A model generated the notes under the pieces. That model searched no databases and was not told the origin of the DNA. It was given only the letters and a program-made list of their open reading frames with translations. From a virus: DNA of 64,000 nucleotides. The stretch lies in IMG/VR virus record IMGVR_UViG_3300037840_000188, positions 1 to 64,000 of that record; one strand, 5' to 3'. Made by a program: the position numbers and the translations under genes. Every line of letters begins with the position of its first letter. Positions within the stretch are counted from its first letter, which is position 1. This document shows positions 3,557-12,907 of this stretch, one piece after another.

Positions 3557-3773
3557 GGCTACCGCTGTCAGAGCGGTCGCTCCGCCCCCGGTTCCCGAAC
3601 CTCCCAACTTCACCGAAACCCAAGAGGACGAATTCCTCTCCTCTATCGTCGGCCTGAAGGTGACCGGCGCTCATTTCTGTGCGTGCCATGGCTACTGCTT
3701 TGAGTTCGACGACAGAATCCAGATGGTATTGCATGAGGGATGCGCGACGTGGCTGAAGAGGGCCGTACAGTGA
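3537..3773 (+). CDS. hypothetical protein
   Basis: overlap-coupled ORF. Confidence 0.45.
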   Translation: MAKKKCKATAVRAVAPPPVPEPPNFTETQEDEFLSSIVGLKVTGAHFCACHGYCFEFDDRIQMVLHEGCATWLKRAVQ

Positions 3774-3997
3774 ATATCTCGCCCGAACAATCCGCCCTCG
3801 AATCCTGGTGGAACGAGGACCCGGAAATGCGCCGCGTAGAGGTCATGTGCGGTGACCACATGAGAGTGAACGTGCGCCTCTGGCGAGTCACCATGGACCC
3901 GACTGTAGAGGCTGGGGAGGAAATGGTCGCGGAGTTCGAGGCCGGGACACTCCTGGATGCTATCAATGGAGCGATACAGAAGGCAGCGGCGTCATGA
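3770..3997 (+). CDS. hypothetical protein
   Basis: GTGA-coupled ORF. Confidence 0.45.
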   Translation: MNISPEQSALESWWNEDPEMRRVEVMCGDHMRVNVRLWRVTMDPTVEAGEEMVAEFEAGTLLDAINGAIQKAAAS

Positions 3998-4330
3998 GTA
4001 GCGGTCCATCCGTCGTCCCCGCCAGCGCTATTTCCTGTCCCTGCGGTTTCGAATTCTCTCCGAAGTTTTGGGCGCAATTGAAGTGCTTCGGATGGGTGGT
4101 GTGCGAGCGATGTCGGCGGCAGTTTACCAGTCCCGGGTATCCCATGGGGGAGAGGGCTGCGCTGTGACTGATCCAGCCGATAGTCTTCGCCTGTCTATCT
4201 GGCATTGTAAGTCATGCCTGAAATGTATTCGGATGCCACTGAAGCTCGTGAGAATGCTGCGTGCGGGAGAGGTGGCTTATGTTTGCGGTACGGAAGGTCA
4301 TCGCATTGAGCTTGAGAGGTGGGAGAGATA

Positions 4331-4630
4331 ATGCCCGCTAGAATCCCCATATCAGCCGCTTCCGATGTCGGCAAGAAGCACAAATGTAAGCAGGTTATTC
4401 TGCTCGCCTTTGACGATGAAGGAAGAACCCACGTAACGACATGGGGTCGCTCTGCCGATGACTGTGCTCAGGCCGCTGCCGGTGGAAATATGCTGAAGAA
4501 GAAGTGGGGCTGGCCGGAGTGTAATGATCAGCCGTCGAGGGTGCGCGAACTGCAATCCGAGGTGAGTGATCTGCGGGACAGAATCAAAGAGATGCAAGCC
4601 TGTCTGGAAGTGAAGGAGGCGCGGGAATGA
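4331..4630 (+). CDS. hypothetical protein with C-terminal coiled coil
   Basis: GGAG RBS, coupled to next gene. Confidence 0.55.
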   Translation: MPARIPISAASDVGKKHKCKQVILLAFDDEGRTHVTTWGRSADDCAQAAAGGNMLKKKWGWPECNDQPSRVRELQSEVSDLRDRIKEMQACLEVKEARE

Positions 4631-5624: not shown

Positions 5625-7100
5625 ATGCTGCCAACCCTACGCGATTACCAAGTACGGGACCTGGAAGCCATTCGTGAGGCTTTTAAGTATCATCGGGCCG
5701 TCCTCCTTCAGCAGCCGTGCGGGTCTGGGAAGGGCACCCTCGCATCATACATCGTAAAATCTGCGGCACAAAAGGGCAATCGCGTTATCTTTATGGTGGA
5801 TCGTCGCAGTTTGGTCGACGACATGAGCGACCGAATCAAAAGGCTAGACGTACCACATGGCGTTATTATGGCTACTGATTCACGTAGGGCACCGTGGGAG
5901 CCCATTCAAGTAGCCAGCATCGATACGATTACCCGCCGCGACACCCCCCCCGCCGCAGACATCTTGATTGTGGATGAGGCGCGTTTCAGTATTTCTGCTA
6001 AATGGAGAAAAGTTTTCGATAAGTACCCAAACGCGCGAATCCTTGGTTTGGATGCTACGCCAGCGCGTACGAGCGGAGAGGGATTAGGGAGATCCAGTGG
6101 TGGTATCTATGATCATATGGTTGTCGGACCTTCGGCTCAAGAGTTAATAAACAAGGGCCATCTCGTCAGATCGCACGTAATAGCGCCACCGCCCGTAGCC
6201 GCGCCATCAAGGGTCGTCGCTGGCGAGTTTCCCGCTGGTGCCGTATCGGCTGCCTGTGACACTAATCAAATAATCGGTGATGTTGTTAAGCAATGGAAGA
6301 AGCATGCAAGCGACCGTAAGACAGTTGGCTTTGGAGCGGATCAGAAGCATTGCCTGCATATGGCCGAGATGTTTCGTGAGGAAGGGATTGAAGCTACCAC
6401 TGTTTTCGATAGCACGCCTACTCTTGAGCGTCGTCGGCTCTGGAGTGATTTTAATTCCGGAACATTGCGCATTTTGATCTCAGTTGGCGTCATAGGATAT
6501 GGGGTCGATTTCCCTATATGTAAGGCGATTATCGACGCCGCTCACACGATGTCTCTTTCGAAGGCTATCCAGCGCTGGGCTCGTGGATCTCGTCCATTCA
6601 GCGGGTACGATTATTTCGTCCTCCTTGACCATGTTGGCAATATCGACCGCCGTTCACCACTAGCCCCTAATGGTTTCGGTTTTTATGAGGATGATCGTAT
6701 CTGGAGCCTTGAGGGGAGGGCTGTCCGTTCGCCCGAAGATGGTGATGATATGTCAGCGGGGATGGTTACTTGTCCGAAGTGCTATCACCGTTTCCGGTAC
6801 GGAAAAAAGGAGTGCCCAGGCTGCGGCTTTGCTATTACCGTAAAGCATCGGATAATGACTGTTGTCGAAGAAGAATTAGTCGAGCGCAAGCGCGCCGAGC
6901 AGAAAACGATGGCCATTGAAGAGTGGCGGACTAAATTGACAGATGAGGACAAGCGTCGGAAGTACGATGAGTGGAGAATAAAAGGTAAAAAACGGGGATA
7001 CAAAAATCAGTGGGCGGATTTATGTTGGAAACGGGTTTTCGGGTCTTGGCCATCAAAGGAATGGCGTAATTCTCCAATACCGGAAGAGGCGACGTTTTGA
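5625..7100 (+). CDS. SF2 DEAD/DEAH-like helicase with C-terminal Zn ribbon
   Basis: LRDYQ, PCGSGKG (Walker A variant), VDEAR, ATP motif III, QRWARGSR, LDHVGN, CPKC...CPGC. Confidence 0.9.
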   Translation: MLPTLRDYQVRDLEAIREAFKYHRAVLLQQPCGSGKGTLASYIVKSAAQKGNRVIFMVDRRSLVDDMSDRIKRLDVPHGVIMATDSRRAPWEPIQVASIDTITRRDTPPAADILIVDEARFSISAKWRKVFDKYPNARILGLDATPARTSGEGLGRSSGGIYDHMVVGPSAQELINKGHLVRSHVIAPPPVAAPSRVVAGEFPAGAVSAACDTNQIIGDVVKQWKKHASDRKTVGFGADQKHCLHMAEMFREEGIEATTVFDSTPTLERRRLWSDFNSGTLRILISVGVIGYGVDFPICKAIIDAAHTMSLSKAIQRWARGSRPFSGYDYFVLLDHVGNIDRRSPLAPNGFGFYEDDRIWSLEGRAVRSPEDGDDMSAGMVTCPKCYHRFRYGKKECPGCGFAITVKHRIMTVVEEELVERKRAEQKTMAIEEWRTKLTDEDKRRKYDEWRIKGKKRGYKNQWADLCWKRVFGSWPSKEWRNSPIPEEATF

Positions 7101-7579
7101 GGAAGCCGAAATCTCCAGCACAGTCACTGGCTGATGATTTTACAGAGGCGGCAGGCAGGCTATGGCCGCATACCCTGATGCACTGGGAAACAAAATTAAA
7201 CGGCACATTTGTTCCATTTAACTACGTGAAAAAGTCCGTCACGATACTGGAGGGAGTCATGGCCAGCAGACCAGAGATGAGAAATATTCTCGGGTCCGCC
7301 ATCGCGCTCCTCATGCATCCAGTAAAAAGCGGGCTTATTGGCGGCCCCGATAGTACTGCCATAATCGGCCACGCTCCTGGGGCGACCGTAGCACCAGGAA
7401 CTCATGCAGGCATTGAATATAAGGCAAAGTACGAACGGGGGCACGACACACAGAAAGATCAGCAGATTCTGTGTCAGGAAAATATAGAGCGCCACGGTGG
7501 CGTGTACATTCTTGTGGAATCCGTCGATCAGGGCATAGCCGATCTTAAGAAATACGCCGGTCCCGGAGAAAAAAAATGA
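7097..7579 (+). CDS. VRR-NUC-like PD-(D/E)xK nuclease
   Basis: GGPD...IEYKA...Q...Q...GGVYILVESVD, adjacent to helicase. Confidence 0.7.
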   Translation: MRKPKSPAQSLADDFTEAAGRLWPHTLMHWETKLNGTFVPFNYVKKSVTILEGVMASRPEMRNILGSAIALLMHPVKSGLIGGPDSTAIIGHAPGATVAPGTHAGIEYKAKYERGHDTQKDQQILCQENIERHGGVYILVESVDQGIADLKKYAGPGEKK

Positions 7580-9423: not shown

Positions 9424-10050
9424 ATGGACACCACCCAGCAACGCAAAGCCGACACCCAGCACCCACTGACGAATCGGGGACCAGCCGCCAGGACCCCAAT
9501 CGGCGGAAAATTTCTGGCGCACGGCTTGACACCTGCGACGTTCCAGCCGCTTCCGAAGCCTCGCAAGACCACGATCCATGCCACAGGAGTGCCGTCAGGC
9601 CCTAAGTGTCAGTTCGTATCGATTGCGCGGTCGAACGCCTCCAAGTCTGATGTCGCAGAACATCTACGCCTGCATAACGAGAGGCAGGCGCAGTTAAAAC
9701 CAACGGGCTTCATACCTGGACAGAAATGCTCGTGGTGCCTTGAGGCGTTCGCCACTCAACCGCTCTATTCGCAGCATCGGCACGTATGCAGTCAGAGACC
9801 AGGCGGACCGCTTCCAGTAGGCCCGCTTTGGGCTACTATGGGCGGGACCCGTCTGGATATTTTCTCCGTATGTGAGTGCGGCGCTGGATTTTCCACGCGA
9901 TCCGCAAAGAAGCGCCATGTGGCAACAGGAGAGTGCCCGCTGGAGCATGTTCCGGACCCGACAATGTGTTGGCTGTGCGGGGACTGGTCCCCTACTCGCG
10001 GGGAGTGGAAGGCGCATCGGCATACTTGCGTGAGACAGGGGGCGGACTAA
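9424..10050 (+). CDS. protein with three C2HC/C2H2-like zinc fingers
   Basis: CSWC..F..HRHVC, CECGAGF..RH....EC, CWLC...AHRHTC. Confidence 0.55.
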   Translation: MDTTQQRKADTQHPLTNRGPAARTPIGGKFLAHGLTPATFQPLPKPRKTTIHATGVPSGPKCQFVSIARSNASKSDVAEHLRLHNERQAQLKPTGFIPGQKCSWCLEAFATQPLYSQHRHVCSQRPGGPLPVGPLWATMGGTRLDIFSVCECGAGFSTRSAKKRHVATGECPLEHVPDPTMCWLCGDWSPTRGEWKAHRHTCVRQGAD

Positions 10051-10055
10051 CAAAT

Positions 10056-10331
10056 ATGGCTCATTCTACAAAATCCGCCCCATCTATCGAACTTTCACTG
10101 CCAGATCGCCTGCGCGTCCTGATCGCAGCCGCATTCGATGTGGAATCCGTGCGCGACCAGGATCGGCTCGATCAGTGGCCTTCGCTGGATTTTATGGAAG
10201 CCGTCGTTGCCTGCGAGCGTCACCTCGGCCTGGGCGAAACTGACGAAGACAGGTTGATGAAGTGCGAGACGGTGGGGCATCTTGTAGCTATCTTCAACGT
10301 TCCCATCTCTATCCAGGAGCCTGTTGTTTAA
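10056..10331 (+). CDS. acyl carrier protein-like protein
   Basis: 91 aa, acidic; WPSLDFMEAVVACERHLG...ETVGHLV resembles ACP (D)SLDxxE..F..I...TVGD. Confidence 0.55.
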   Translation: MAHSTKSAPSIELSLPDRLRVLIAAAFDVESVRDQDRLDQWPSLDFMEAVVACERHLGLGETDEDRLMKCETVGHLVAIFNVPISIQEPVV

Positions 10332-10768
10332 TGCAGGCCGCTCGCGAAGTCACCGATGACGGTAATACTAAATGGGTCGATTGCAGCGGCTGCAAGCACC
10401 CGCGACCGTTCTCCTGGTACACAAAAGACGTACACACTCTGCTTGGGATCGGCTACCTATGTCGGTCGTGCAGGCCGAAGGGGAACAAGCTGAAAGTCGT
10501 CGATCCAGATTATGAGGTGATCCGCACGGTCAACGCAAAGCCCCTGCGCCCAGAGAAAGAAAAGATGGCCGCTGGGTCATGGGAACGTGTGGTGAGGCGC
10601 GCGGCGCTATGTGCGCAATATGAATGCGTAATTGTCTATGTTGGAAAAGAAAATTACCTTTCCCGTCAGTCCGCGCTATCAGGCCTTCATCTCGCGGCGA
10701 AGAGAATGAAAATGAAGATCTCCATTCGACATGGTCGAAGTGAATTATATGTAAAAGTCAAGGAGTGA
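10331..10768 (+). CDS. Zn-ribbon protein with basic C-terminal domain; contains the gapped match to the pentamer array
   Basis: CSGC...CRSC; region 10634-10677 matches array dinucleotides. Confidence 0.6.
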   Translation: MQAAREVTDDGNTKWVDCSGCKHPRPFSWYTKDVHTLLGIGYLCRSCRPKGNKLKVVDPDYEVIRTVNAKPLRPEKEKMAAGSWERVVRRAALCAQYECVIVYVGKENYLSRQSALSGLHLAAKRMKMKISIRHGRSELYVKVKE

Positions 10769-10773
10769 CAAGC

Positions 10774-10941
10774 ATGAAGGCGAAAAAGAAAAATAAGGCA
10801 GCTCAAAATCTTGTCGCGATGAGAAATAAAAAACTATCCCCAGCGCGCCGAAAAGAAATAGCACAGAAAGCAGCACAAAAAAGATGGAAAAATAATGCTT
10901 ACGAAAGCATTGACGTGAAGCCTCCCGCGAGTATAAAGTAA
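10774..10941 (+). CDS. small basic protein (LSPxRRxEIAxKAAxxRW motif)
   Basis: 55 aa ORF read by hand: MKAKKKNKAAQNLVAMRNKKLSPARRKEIAQKAAQKRW..; AAGGAG RBS. Confidence 0.6.
   Translation: MKAKKKNKAAQNLVAMRNKKLSPARRKEIAQKAAQKRWKNNAYESIDVKPPASIK
10910..10939 (+). promoter_or_regulatory. sigma70-like promoter of the RAMP gene, probably leaderless
   Basis: TTGACG 10910-10915; TATAAA/TAAAGT 10932-10939; ATG at 10946. Confidence 0.55.
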
Positions 10942-10945
10942 GCAC

Positions 10946-11554
10946 ATGGCCAAACAAACAGCACTTGAGCCCGTATCAAATGACGCCGAATCCGTAATCG
11001 ACATCAGTCAGCCATATGTAGCGCTCGTCAGTGTAGTTGGCACTGCACCGTTTCTCTTTCATCGTTGGAGCGTCGAGGGTGTGGACGCAAAGGCGAAAGC
11101 GGCTAAGGGATCAAAAGCCAAGAGGTCAGACGATCTTGAATCTTACGTCTACCGTAATATGAAGGGCGAACTTTGCATTCCGGGCGAATATCTGCGCATG
11201 GCGATCATTGGAGCCGCCAAGTTCCGACAAGATCCGCGCTCTCCCCGAAAGAGCGCAATGGATCTTTTTAAGGCTGGTGTTGTCGCAATTGAACCTCTTT
11301 GCTCGCTCGGCGTTTCTGACTGGTCATATGTCGATCAGAGGCGCGTGATGATCCAGCGTAATGGCATTACCCGATCCCGTCCGGCAATGGAATCCGGATG
11401 GAAAGTAGACTTTCTGATTCAATGCCTTCTGCCGGAGTACATTCCAGCCGATACCCTCAATGAAGTAATTCAGAGCGCGGGAAGGCTTATCGGTATGGGA
11501 GATTTCAGGCCGACGTACGGGAGGTTCCAAGTTACAGGTTTCGAGATTTCTTGA
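10946..11554 (+). CDS. stand-alone Cas7/RAMP-like RNA-binding protein
   Basis: N-terminal strand VSVVGTAPFLFH, LCIPGEYLRMAI (IPGxxxK/R-like), R-P thumb region, C-terminal Gly loop AGRLIGMGDFRPTYGRFQV; no other cas genes in window. Confidence 0.7.
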   Translation: MAKQTALEPVSNDAESVIDISQPYVALVSVVGTAPFLFHRWSVEGVDAKAKAAKGSKAKRSDDLESYVYRNMKGELCIPGEYLRMAIIGAAKFRQDPRSPRKSAMDLFKAGVVAIEPLCSLGVSDWSYVDQRRVMIQRNGITRSRPAMESGWKVDFLIQCLLPEYIPADTLNEVIQSAGRLIGMGDFRPTYGRFQVTGFEIS

Positions 11555-11570
11555 GTTTTGAAAAAACTTC

Positions 11571-11655
11571 GTGGTGTGGTTAGGTGTGGAGGGGCAAGAT
11601 AAGGTTAGGATTGGATCGGAAGGGTCAGGCTCGGCGCGGTTTGGCAAGGCATGGT
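11571..11655 (+). repeat. array of 17 tandem NN-GGN pentamers (putative guide ncRNA, about 11553-11702)
   Basis: gtGGT gtGGT taGGT gtGGA ggGGC aaGAT aaGGT taGGA ttGGA tcGGA agGGT caGGC tcGGC gcGGT ttGGC aaGGC atGGT; 16/17 units have GG at positions 3-4. Confidence 0.9.
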
Positions 11656-11702
11656 GCTGATTCTGGTTGATTTTAAGTAATCACCAGAATCAGCTTTACT
11701 TT
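11656..11702 (+). terminator. hairpin closing the pentamer array
   Basis: GCTGATTCTGG-T-TGATT / AATCA-CCAGAATCAGC stem followed by TTTACTTT. Confidence 0.75.
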
Positions 11703-11719
11703 GAAAGGAATAAAATTAC

Positions 11720-12010
11720 TTGACTTTGTCATACGCAGCGACACTAAGAACTGAAAGACTCCTGCCGCGTCCGATTGTATACTACGGCTCTACTTATGAA
11801 TCGGTGGAAGGAGTAGCTCAAAAATGGTTACAAGCCAATGGTGAGCACGGTGATTCTTTCGTTATCATCGAGAACGTACCTGTCGAGCGCGCAGTGATTG
11901 AGTGTCAAAAGCCGAAACGAGAAAGAGTATACAAGGGCCACGCATTCGTGTCCGGGCCGAACCTGAATCGGTGTGATGTTTGTGGACGGAAAGAAGAGGA
12001 GCACAAGTAG
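11720..12010 (+). CDS. hypothetical protein
   Basis: TTG start after AAGGA; C-terminal H..CxxC..H. Confidence 0.5.
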   Translation: MTLSYAATLRTERLLPRPIVYYGSTYESVEGVAQKWLQANGEHGDSFVIIENVPVERAVIECQKPKRERVYKGHAFVSGPNLNRCDVCGRKEEEHK

Positions 12011-12907
12011 ATGAGAATCGTAGAGCCAGAAGTCTATCTACTGGCGCAGACCAGCATGGATGTAAAACCGCCAAAGGCATTTCGCGGAAACTTGCAGGCT
12101 TATCTTGAAAAAGTGGGAGTTGCCGAATGGAAGACAACGGCATGTACAGACGGGGAAATGCTCGTGGAGGTGGCTGGACGCCTCTGCTATAAAGCTTTCG
12201 GTTTGGGCTTGAATGCCAACGTCACTAAAGTCCGAGAGGGTAATCAGATTTACCTGGAGAATCTCGCCAAGCAGGATCACGGGTCAGTACAGGAGCATTC
12301 GACGGTTACATTTTTATTCCGAGACGTGAGTCGCATCCTGACGCATGAACTCGTCCGGCATCGCGTTGGCGTAGCGATATCCCAGGAATCCGGACGGTAC
12401 GTCAGAGCCGATGACGTTGGTCTTTACATCCCGGAATGCTTCAAGGAATGCCCCGGCACAGTCGATATGATCAAGACCCATGTCGAAGCTGGCGAGGATT
12501 TAGCTCGCCGTTTGACGATAGCGTTCGATCTGGACAATCCGAAGACGGCTTTCGCCCGAAAGAAGGAAGTGACTTCGGCACTCCGCCGTTTTGCTCCGTT
12601 CGGCCACTCATCGTCGCTCGTGTGGACCACCAATCACCGCAATCTTCGCTTCGTTCTCCAGAAGCGAACCGAGGGTGGCGCGGAAGAAGAAATTCGCAAA
12701 CTCTTCGATCCGGTTGGTTACGGCATGAAGGAGATGTTCCCAAATCTGTATCAGGATATTTACCGTCGTGAATCCGGGGAATGGGTGTCGAAATTTTCAG
12801 CGCGTGGTTTGGCGGATGACCTAAGAAGGTTGATTGCCAGTGGGCCAGATGGCGGCGTCAAAAATTCCAGCGGAATCGAGGCACTCCTGAAAGAGCGGGG
12901 ACTCTGA
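12011..12907 (+). CDS. thyX: FAD-dependent thymidylate synthase
   Basis: HGSVQEH, THELVRHRVGVAISQESGRY (RHRx7S), R...AEEEIR motifs. Confidence 0.93.
   Translation: MRIVEPEVYLLAQTSMDVKPPKAFRGNLQAYLEKVGVAEWKTTACTDGEMLVEVAGRLCYKAFGLGLNANVTKVREGNQIYLENLAKQDHGSVQEHSTVTFLFRDVSRILTHELVRHRVGVAISQESGRYVRADDVGLYIPECFKECPGTVDMIKTHVEAGEDLARRLTIAFDLDNPKTAFARKKEVTSALRRFAPFGHSSSLVWTTNHRNLRFVLQKRTEGGAEEEIRKLFDPVGYGMKEMFPNLYQDIYRRESGEWVSKFSARGLADDLRRLIASGPDGGVKNSSGIEALLKERGL

What the first reader, a model, noticed from the sequence alone, without database searches (positions are those of the whole stretch)
10631..10678. Decoded array dinucleotides match the upstream gene in a read-2-skip-1 code
Array NN series: GT GT TA GT GG AA AA TA TT TC AG CA TC GC TT AA AT. 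Codons at 10634-10678: GTc TAt GTt GGa AAa [GAa] AAt TAc CTt TCc CGt CAg TCc GCg CTa (VYVGK[E]NYLSRQSAL). Units 2-15 match codon positions 1+2 at 25/28 nt (11 of 14 dinucleotides perfect) with one 3-nt gap. The skipped base is always the wobble position, and the third GGN base does not track it (4/13). My rough binomial estimate is about 1e-12 per alignment, so chance is unlikely even over 128 kb of both strands with free gap placement. The array has sense polarity, so an RNA would pair with template-strand DNA rather than mRNA. Inference: this is a programmed gapped target insensitive to synonymous third-position escape, used for self-regulation or against a related phage carrying a homologue.
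Basis: partly seen in the sequence, partly recalled or inferred. Interest (0 to 1): 0.95.

Follow-up and report, generated by a model that had tools for sequence, protein, structure and literature searches.

The report
VIPR guide RNA aimed at rival allele
The five-base repeat tract is the guide RNA of a VIPR system, a CRISPR-related phage weapon first described in 2026 preprints.

Summary
A 17-unit NNGGN array (11571-11655, + strand) has dinucleotides that match codon positions 1+2 at 10634-10678 at 25/28 nt with one 3-nt gap. Its local score is 19, against a maximum of 14 in 500 shuffled guides, and only period 3 gives a signal.

This is not a new code. It is the published "1-nt skip rule" of VIPR systems (bioRxiv 10.64898/2026.04.26.720920, .720927 and 2026.10.15.759431).
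- The 202-aa gene just upstream is a Vipr. Its only PDB sequence match is SUSP1 Vipr (profile E 4.9e-10), the model has a Cas7/Csm3-like fold, and the GG-contact residues are conserved.
- Fifty-nine distinct relatives carry arrays with variable NN and conserved GGY.

Under the published zero-gap, at-least-80% criterion the phage's own 141-kb genome holds no target. Its best score is 20/34, which equals the shuffled-guide null.

Sibling-phage alleles of the same gene match without a gap: L089 30/34 and L002 29/34, with units 1-12 perfect in both. All nine other alleles lack the GAA codon that breaks the own-copy match. Siblings also lack the roughly 950-bp cassette at this site.

This scan has already called VIPR on this window and on several other genomes. 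New member of a known kind.

The parts
10331..10768 (+). 145-aa early gene of unknown function. It has an N-terminal CxxC...CxxC zinc-ribbon-like motif. Its alleles in sibling phages are the predicted VIPR target.
   Evidence: ORF list. No Pfam or PHROG match and no usable lead from the protein atlas. Nine homologues at 46-58% identity in alignment A4.
10631..10684 (+). The phage's own, shielded copy of the guide footprint. Codons ATT GTC TAT GTT GGA AAA [GAA] AAT TAC CTT TCC CGT CAG TCC GCG CTA TCA GGC encode IVYVGK[E]NYLSRQSALSG.
   Evidence: 25/28 with one gap for units 2-15. Ungapped 16/34, or 26/34 with the extra codon removed.
10649..10651 (+). Extra GAA (Glu) codon that throws the own allele out of register with the guide.
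   Evidence: Absent from all 9 other alleles. In alignment A4 it is the only gap in the C-terminal part, from shortly after the second CxxC motif to the variable ends.
10765..10941 (+). Small lysine-rich ORF of 55-58 aa (likely start ATG at 10774). It is a candidate accessory (vap-like) gene of the cassette.
   Evidence: A 78%-identical ORF sits directly upstream of vipr in L003, in a different genomic context. It is absent from the other 80-odd loci. Only weak PHROG hits.
10946..11554 (+). vipr gene: a 202-aa minimal Cas7-like RAMP protein that should polymerise on the repeat tract, one protomer per unit.
   Evidence: phrog_4652, E 5e-17. The only PDB sequence hit is SUSP1 Vipr 36pp_D, E 6e-6 for the single sequence and 4.9e-10 for the profile, covering 27-197. 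AF2 model pLDDT 85; top Foldseek hits are Csm3, type VII Cas7 and Cas7-11 at probability 1.00. 7009 homologues in the protein collection.
11571..11655 (+). vrRNA repeat tract of 17 NNGGN units (YNNGG register 11570-11654). The NN dinucleotides are the guide. The last unit, within the motif GGC-ATGG, recurs in relatives and is probably part of the handle rather than the guide.
   Evidence: It is the only array of this kind in the 141-kb genome. No Rfam match.
11656..11704 (+). 3' tail: an 11-12 bp hairpin with an inner stem, followed by a U-rich run that looks like an intrinsic terminator.
   Evidence: The fold of 11560-11712 gives the hairpin, MFE -42.3 kcal/mol. L007 has a hairpin at the same place with a different stem sequence and the same TTGATTTTAAG loop.
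7550..7579 (+). Last 10 codons, including the stop, of gene 7097-7579. This is the predicted target of the guide carried by the sibling VIPR cassette in L003.
   Evidence: 17/20 with 8 consecutive units perfect, in frame with the wobble skipped. The same match occurs at the homologous site L090:651. L003's own allele scores 13/20 by my hand count from the sequence.

Best explanation
Window 10765-11719 is a compact VIPR cassette: a small basic ORF, vipr and one vrRNA. It lies between the 145-aa gene and the next conserved gene of a 141-kb phage.

**Inferred from the published SUSP1 and P. fulva work.** Vipr protomers bind each GGY, one per 5-nt unit, and present the NN pairs. The filament pairs with one strand of double-stranded DNA, reading 2 nt and skipping 1. 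This forms an R-loop triplex that blocks transcription.

**Shown here by sequence.** The guide spells V-V-Y-V-G-K-N-Y-F/L-S-R-H/Q-S-A... of the neighbouring gene as sibling phages carry it. Those siblings have no cassette at this site. The carrier's own allele holds an extra GAA codon in the middle of the footprint, plus first-position changes in two Leu codons and one Arg codon, so no ungapped match remains in its genome.

**Inferred function.** During co-infection, or on meeting a resident relative, the complex silences the rival's early operon at this gene, while the carrier's linked allele is immune.
For: - **Array and match.** The match to the own gene is real.
- **Published rule.** GGY/NN units, a 1-nt skip, wobble skipped, dsDNA targets on either strand, transcriptional repression and rival mobile elements as targets.
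- **Vipr identity.** Sequence and profile match to SUSP1 Vipr. In those alignments H39, R145, D186, F187 and R188 pair with SUSP1 H17, R138, D177, W178 and R179 (my count), and four of the five are invariant and H39 at least 90% conserved across 33 homologues. The model has a Cas7-like fold.
- **Relatives.** In 59 distinct arrays, positions 1-2 are near-uniform, positions 3-4 are G (95% and 86%) and position 5 is a pyrimidine in 88%.
- **Own genome.** The best ungapped score is 20/34, which equals the shuffled-guide null with mode 21.
- **Rival alleles.** L089 scores 30/34 and L002 29/34. Units 1-12 are perfect in both, although by my count they differ from each other at 4 of those 12 wobble bases. 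Shuffled guides reach at most 23 on L002.
- **Extra codon.** It is absent from 9 of 9 other alleles.
- **Cassette as insertion.** Synteny shows the cassette is absent from L002, and probably from L089, L090 and L091 by gene order.
- **Second case.** The L003 cassette (Vipr 93% identical) sits after a different gene and targets the end of that gene in this window and in L090.
Against: - There is no expression, binding or repression data for this system, and the host is unknown.
- The best known target matches at 85-88%, not 100%. Its mismatches lie in the 3' units (13, 15, 17), and published structures show R-loop formation starting at the 3' end. The intended target is therefore probably a still unsampled allele.
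- The rival alleles are only about 57-58% identical in protein. They come from short Logan contigs, and co-occurrence with this phage is not shown.
- Silencing a rival's copy of a gene whose product can act in trans gives no obvious advantage unless the block is polar or acts in cis.
- With the extra codon removed, the own allele would score 26/34 (76%). Ordinary divergence, rather than selection, could explain part of the difference.
- The base after GG is A in 4 of 17 units, which is looser than strict GGY.
Confidence: 0.78

Rival explanations
1. Autoregulation. The guide binds the phage's own gene despite the extra codon, with the degenerate unit 6 (AAGAT) acting as a hinge that lets one target codon bulge out. 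This would tune expression of the 145-aa gene or of the cassette downstream.
For: - The gapped match is 25/28.
- The one non-GG unit sits exactly at the gap.
- Nine consecutive 3'-side units (7-15) match the own site at 15/18 by my count from the codon table. Published filaments nucleate from the 3' end and can keep unconverted middle segments.
Against: - The published skip pocket takes a single nucleotide, and the DNA is clamped at 3 nt per protomer.
- Target calling in the literature uses zero gaps, and no self-target at or above 80% was found for the guides surveyed.
- Own-genome ungapped scores are at the shuffle level.
- Rival alleles match better with no gap.
- Internal degenerate units are common in vrRNAs, so one falling at the gap is about a 1-in-14 coincidence.
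Confidence: 0.1
2. Relic guide. The array descends from, or once targeted, an ancestral form of this gene and now has no functional target. The similarity to the own and sibling alleles is only shared ancestry.
For: - No 100% target was found in IMG/VR or the JGI metagenomes by exact pattern search.
- The best targets have mismatches in the 3' units.
- The guide is a mosaic. Units 13-15 fit the own allele better, while units 1, 9, 11 and 16 fit L002 and L089.
Against: - The cassette is intact. vipr is full-length with conserved contact residues, GG is kept in 16 of 17 units, and the tail hairpin is intact.
- 30/34 exceeds the published 80% threshold.
- The databases searched hold only nine other alleles, so failing to find a perfect one says little.
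Confidence: 0.1
3. Chance resemblance, or a protein-sponge RNA (TRAP- or CsrA-like GG repeats) whose NN bases carry no information.
For: Period-5 GG repeats could in principle be a pure protein-binding scaffold. Rfam has no model for the region.
Against: - The score of 19 exceeds the maximum of 14 in 500 shuffles.
- A homologue on a 1.4-kb contig matches at 29/34, against at most 23 for shuffled guides.
- The signal is specific to period 3 and in frame with the wobble skipped.
- The neighbouring protein is a Vipr homologue.
Confidence: 0.01

Closest known systems
VIPR systems (Vipr + vrRNA), characterised for Escherichia phage SUSP1 and a Pseudomonas fulva prophage (type II). Sources: bioRxiv 10.64898/2026.04.26.720920, 10.64898/2026.04.26.720927 and 10.64898/2026.10.15.759431; PDB 36pp.
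   Same: - Phage-borne.
- A minimal Cas7-like RAMP of 202 aa with the same G-loop (GDW/FRP..GRF) and thumb arginine.
- A guide of tandem 5-nt GGY/NN units followed by a structured 3' tail.
- Read-2-skip-1 targets inside coding sequence, with the wobble base skipped.
- The target lies in a competing phage.
- No self-target at or above 80%.
   Different: - The Vipr is only distantly related to SUSP1 Vipr (E 5e-10 by profile), so the VIPR type could not be assigned.
- It has a single vrRNA of 17 units, against 9-16 units per vrRNA and several vrRNAs per locus in type II.
- The tail is a plain terminator-like hairpin, and no pseudoknot was shown.
- The base after GG is A in 4 of 17 units.
- There is no recognisable vap1, only a 55-aa basic ORF shared with one relative.
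- The target is the rival allele of the gene next to the cassette, and the carrier's allele is shielded by an in-frame codon insertion. I did not find this escape route described in the three preprints (no hits for 'insertion' in the first or 'indel' and 'codon insertion' in the third).
Class 1 CRISPR-Cas backbone (Cas7/Csm3 filaments on crRNA, with every 6th base flipped out)
   Same: The RAMP fold is shared: top Foldseek hits are Csm3, type VII Cas7 and Cas7-11, with TM about 0.5 and probability 1.00. Protomers polymerise on a guide, and thumb insertions interrupt the pairing at regular intervals.
   Different: There is no CRISPR repeat-spacer array in the window. The rule is 2-of-5 on the guide against 2-of-3 on the target, not 5-of-6. 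No adaptation or nuclease genes are evident in the cassette. A search for cas genes across the whole genome was not run.
Free-standing homing endonucleases of T4-like phages (intronless homing and marker exclusion, e.g. the seg and mob genes). This comparison is from my own knowledge and was not tested.
   Same: - The topology matches: a small mobile cassette sits between conserved genes.
- Its recognition site lies in the adjacent gene of relatives that lack the cassette.
- The carrier's adjacent allele is immune through sequence differences.
- This arrangement is seen here and, at another insertion site, in L003.
   Different: No nuclease is evident, and published type II VIPR binds and represses rather than cuts. 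Copying of the cassette into rivals is not shown. Most relatives (57 of 60) show no near-match in their own flanks.

Membership tests
VIPR system | The Vipr protein is a minimal RAMP (RRM core, G-loop, thumb) without a second RRM domain. | tested here: met
   The AF2 model has pLDDT 85.4 and pTM 0.78. The best Foldseek PDB hits are all Cas7-family RAMPs (Csm3, type VII Cas7, Cas7-11) at probability 1.00 over about 200 columns.
VIPR system | Sequence homology to an experimentally characterised Vipr. | tested here: met
   The only PDB sequence hit is 'SUSP1 Vipr protein' 36pp_D. E is 6.3e-6 for the single sequence and 4.9e-10 for a 33-sequence profile covering positions 27-197 of 202.
VIPR system | The residues that hold the two guanines and the pyrimidine (SUSP1 H17, R138, D177, W178, R179) are conserved. 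| tested here: met
   The HMMER alignments pair them with H39, R145, D186, F187 (aromatic in place of W) and R188, by my count of alignment positions. R145, D186, F187 and R188 are invariant and H39 at least 90% conserved in alignment A2. Other contact residues (K33, R39, K82) could not be aligned with confidence.
VIPR system | The vrRNA has at least 4 tandem 5-nt units of conserved GGY alternating with variable NN, next to vipr. | tested here: met
   There are 17 units starting 17 nt after the vipr stop. Sixteen of 17 carry GG. The base after GG is T in 8, C in 5 and A in 4 units. The A's fit the published looser NNNGG variants.
VIPR system | Among relatives, NN is hypervariable while GGY is conserved. 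| tested here: met
   In 59 distinct arrays downstream of Vipr homologues, each base at positions 1-2 makes up 20-31%. Positions 3 and 4 are G in 95% and 86%. Position 5 is C or T in 88%.
VIPR system | A conserved structured 3' tail caps the repeat tract (a pseudoknot in the SUSP1 clade). | tested here: inconclusive
   A strong hairpin plus a U-run is present. The relative L007 shares the loop motif with a different stem sequence. No pseudoknot was tested. The loop motif TTGATT is not significantly enriched across the 60 loci (12 observed, about 8 expected).
VIPR system | A natural target obeys the 1-nt skip rule with zero gaps and at least 80% NN match. | tested here: met
   L089 scores 30/34 (88%) and L002 29/34 (85%), with units 1-12 perfect. 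Periods 2, 4, 5 and 6 give only background in the window.
VIPR system | In coding targets the skipped base falls on the codon wobble position. | tested here: met
   The footprint is in frame with the ORF in the own copy (10634 is codon position 1) and in L002, L089 and L003. By my count L002 and L089 differ at 4 wobble bases and at none of the 24 read bases in units 1-12.
VIPR system | No self-target at or above 80% in the carrier genome. | tested here: met
   The best full-length ungapped score in the 140,995-bp genome is 20/34 (59%) on either strand, within the shuffled-guide null.
VIPR system | An accessory vap gene with a DNA-binding or nuclease domain. | tested here: inconclusive
   The only candidate is the 55-58-aa lysine-rich ORF. 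It has no Pfam hit, only weak PHROG hits, and is conserved only in L003.
VIPR system | The vrRNA is expressed, forms an RNP with Vipr, binds dsDNA and represses transcription. | not testable with these tools
   This needs small-RNA sequencing, a pull-down and reporter or EMSA assays.
CRISPR-Cas (class 1) | A repeat-spacer CRISPR array and further cas genes beside the Cas7-like gene. | tested here: not met
   Tandem Repeats Finder reports no CRISPR-like repeat in the 64-kb window. The neighbouring ORFs have no cas-family Pfam hits. Genome-wide cas searches were not run.

The most novel reading that the evidence does not exclude
The VIPR cassette and the recoded allele next to it form a linked 'weapon plus immunity' module that behaves like a free-standing homing element. 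The guide is aimed at the gene beside the empty insertion site in rivals, within 0-135 nt of the junction in the two cases seen here. Binding there during co-infection, through a polar block or through stalled replication and recombination, would favour inheritance of the cassette-linked allele. The in-frame codon insertion and the Leu/Arg codon-family switches would be the routes left open for escaping a wobble-blind guide.
Probability: 0.2. Interest if true: 0.6.

Novelty: new member of a known kind. Interest (0 to 1): 0.35.

Why it matters
This locus gives a clean natural guide-target pair for a VIPR clade far from the two studied systems. It has a single 17-unit guide, a plain hairpin tail and a 141-kb environmental phage as carrier.

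It also shows how a carrier can stay immune to its own wobble-blind guide. One in-frame codon insertion shifts the register, and first-position changes at two Leu codons and one Arg codon add mismatches. Together with the L003 case, it suggests that some VIPR cassettes sit directly beside the gene they attack in relatives.

That arrangement bears on how guides arise and spread, which the preprints leave open. It does not change the known mechanism.

Tried and rejected
- **Rfam.** A scan of 10000-12500 gave only chance-level hits.
- **Pfam.** None for Vipr, the target gene or the small ORF.
- **Close relatives in GenBank phages.** blastn of 10331-11720 against the phage collection found no match.
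- **Target homologues in IMG/VR.** The protein-based scan found none.
- **Perfect target.** An exact pattern search for guide units 2-12 found nothing in IMG/VR or the JGI metagenomes.
- **Function of the target protein.** The protein atlas gave nothing usable, with scores below 0.8 and TM below 0.5.
- **Is "guide resembles its own flanking gene" general?**
  - For 60 distinct arrays, the best 9-unit ungapped score in the own locus (mean 13.4) does not exceed cross-locus scores (13.2).
  - With the more powerful local score, only this window (19, z about 7), L064 (16, a 21/26 in-frame match in the gene just downstream) and perhaps L021 stand out.
- So the arrangement is recurrent but a minority.
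- **Tail motif.** TTGATT is not significantly enriched.
- **Codon-family swaps as proof of selection.** All three own-copy mismatches fall on Leu and Arg first positions, but if the peptide is conserved these are the only read positions free to vary. I therefore do not count them as evidence of selected escape.
- **Other readings.** TRAP- or CsrA-like protein-sponge RNA and pure chance were both rejected by the shuffle controls.

Full report
**What is there.** The + strand at 11571-11655 holds 17 consecutive five-base units of the form NN-GG-N. Sixteen carry GG and unit 6 reads AAGAT. The tract starts 17 nt after the stop of a 202-aa ORF (10946-11554). It ends in a strong hairpin (11656-11694) followed by a U-rich run. 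It is the only such array in the 140,995-bp virus record to which the window belongs.

**Checking the observation.**
- Against codons 10634-10678 of ORF 10331-10768, units 2-15 match positions 1+2 at 25/28 nt with one extra target codon (GAA, 10649-10651). The skipped base is always the wobble base.
- In a unit-level local alignment over both strands of the window, the site scores 19 at period 3 on the + strand. Periods 2, 4, 5 and 6 and the other strand give 10-12.
- 500 shuffled guides give a mean of about 11, an sd of 1.1 and a maximum of 14.

**What it is.** A literature search found that this code has been published. VIPR systems consist of a minimal RAMP protein (Vipr) and vrRNAs built from GGY/NN repeats. 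Vipr protomers bind one repeat each and hide the GGY. The NN pairs base-pair with double-stranded DNA targets in which every third base is skipped. Natural targets lie mostly in coding sequence with the skip on the wobble position, on either strand. The outcome is transcriptional repression of competing phages and satellites.

I tested the defining features here.
- **Vipr homology.** The 202-aa protein has one PDB sequence match, 'SUSP1 Vipr protein' (36pp_D). E is 6.3e-6 alone and 4.9e-10 with a 33-sequence profile over nearly the full length.
- **Contact residues.** The residues that hold the guanines and the pyrimidine in SUSP1 (H17, R138, D177, W178, R179) align with H39, R145, D186, F187 and R188, by my count of alignment positions. 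Four are invariant and H39 is at least 90% conserved among homologues.
- **Fold.** An AlphaFold model (pLDDT 85) is most similar to Csm3, type VII Cas7 and Cas7-11.
- **Family size.** The family has 7009 members in the protein collection.
- **Relatives' arrays.** I called a GG-periodic run downstream of 80 related vipr genes. In the 59 distinct arrays of at least 9 units, NN is near-uniform in composition, GG is 95% and 86% G, and the next base is a pyrimidine in 88%.
- **Looser GGY.** The window's array has A after GG in 4 of 17 units. This fits the looser variants the paper mentions.
- **Rfam.** No model matches.

**Which DNA is the target.** The published way to call targets is a full-length, ungapped scan with a threshold of 80% NN identity.
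- **Own genome.** By that test the phage's own genome has no target. The best score on either strand is 20/34, which is what shuffled guides give.
- **Own site.** It scores 16/34 or 19/34 depending on register.
- **Homologues.** The 145-aa protein has nine homologues in the protein collection. All nine lack the glutamate that the window's allele carries after V-G-K. In alignment A4 that residue is the only gap in the C-terminal part, from shortly after the second CxxC motif to the variable ends.
- **DNA-level matches.** The guide matches two sibling alleles without any gap. L089 scores 30/34 and L002 29/34, with units 1-12 perfect in both, although by my count they differ from each other at four of those twelve wobble bases. 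More distant alleles score 21-25.
- **Own allele without the extra codon.** It would score 26/34.
- **Terminal unit.** The last unit (AT, within GGC-ATGG) recurs at array ends in relatives: it is the final NN in 9 of 59 arrays, against a 9% overall frequency of AT. It is probably handle rather than guide. Without it L089 reaches 30/32.

**The cassette is an insertion.**
- In L002 the gene after the target homologue is the homologue of window 11720-12010.
- L091 runs target gene, a 60-aa ORF, a 99-aa ORF and then a thymidylate synthase. L089 and L090 look the same by gene size and order.
- Window 10765-11719 (small lysine-rich ORF, vipr, vrRNA) is therefore an extra segment in this phage, placed directly after the gene whose rival alleles it matches.
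- The small ORF recurs (78% identity) in front of vipr only in L003, the closest relative. Whether it is an accessory gene is open.

**A second case.**
- L003 carries a Vipr 93% identical to this one, but its cassette sits after a different gene, the homologue of window 7097-7579.
- Its 10-unit guide matches the last ten codons of that gene in this window (7550-7579, 17/20, eight units perfect, in frame) and the homologous site in L090. L003's own allele scores 13/20 by my hand count.
- By my rough binomial estimate, the chance of such a hit anywhere in this genome is about 0.01. That it falls in the one gene flanking L003's cassette makes chance very unlikely.
- This window's phage is thus itself a predicted target of a sibling's VIPR.

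**How general is the 'neighbour' arrangement.** I tested 60 distinct arrays against their own 3-kb flanks and against each other's. Only this window (score 19), L064 (16; 21/26 in frame in the gene just downstream) and perhaps L021 stand out, and the rest are background. The arrangement recurs but is not the rule.

**Mechanism, and what is shown or inferred.**
- **Shown by sequence:** the array, the Vipr homology, the skip rule, the better ungapped fit to sibling alleles, the unique extra codon and the cassette insertion.
- **Inferred from the published systems:** RNP filament formation, R-loop triplex formation on DNA and transcriptional block.
- **Inferred here:** the extra codon is the main shield of the carrier's allele. 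The published skip pocket holds one nucleotide and the DNA is clamped at 3 nt per protomer.

**Caveats.**
- The best known targets mismatch in the 3' units (13, 15, 17). Published structures suggest pairing starts at the 3' end, so the intended allele is probably not yet sampled.
- Exact pattern searches of IMG/VR and the JGI metagenomes found no perfect site.
- Co-occurrence of carrier and rivals is not shown.
- The benefit of silencing a gene whose product could be supplied in trans is unclear, unless the block is polar or acts in cis.

**Verdict.** The 'self-regulation' reading is not supported. The system is a VIPR, described in 2026 preprints and already recognised by this scan on this window (e1-5883284, e1-5883286) and on other genomes. 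It is a new member of a known kind. Two modest additions are immunity of the carrier by an in-frame codon insertion, and a second, independent example of a cassette placed beside the gene it attacks.

Noticed in passing
window 7550-7579 (end of gene 7097-7579): This phage is itself a predicted target. The 10-unit guide of the sibling cassette in L003 (4661-4710) matches these last ten codons at 17/20 with eight units perfect, and matches the same site in L090:651.
   Followed up: partly
L064:3649-3738 and L064:4348-4386: Another relative's guide (units 3-15) matches its own downstream neighbour gene (ORF 3763-4536) at 21/26, in frame with the wobble skipped. This is a third case of a guide resembling the gene beside the cassette.
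   Followed up: partly
L004:4829-4868 against L053:2445: An 8-unit array of L004 matches L053 at 15/16, just upstream of L053's vipr gene. It may be a guide aimed at another VIPR locus, but by my rough estimate about 0.015 such hits are expected by chance in the DNA searched.
   Followed up: no
L007:4629-4778, L004:4631-4770, L056 and L038: Close relatives carry much longer GG-periodic tracts of 28-87 units, with internal degenerate units and recurring GGC-ATG(G/T) motifs. They probably hold several consecutive or staggered vrRNAs, unlike the single guide here.
   Followed up: no
window 10910-10939: A weak sigma-70-like site (TTGACG, 18 nt, TAAAGT) lies just before vipr. No promoter-like site lies between vipr and the array, so the vrRNA may be cut from the vipr transcript.
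   Followed up: no
genome positions 21 and 140883 (+ strand): The two best, background-level, + strand guide scores in the genome scan lie near the two ends of the record. This might reflect a terminal repeat.
   Followed up: no
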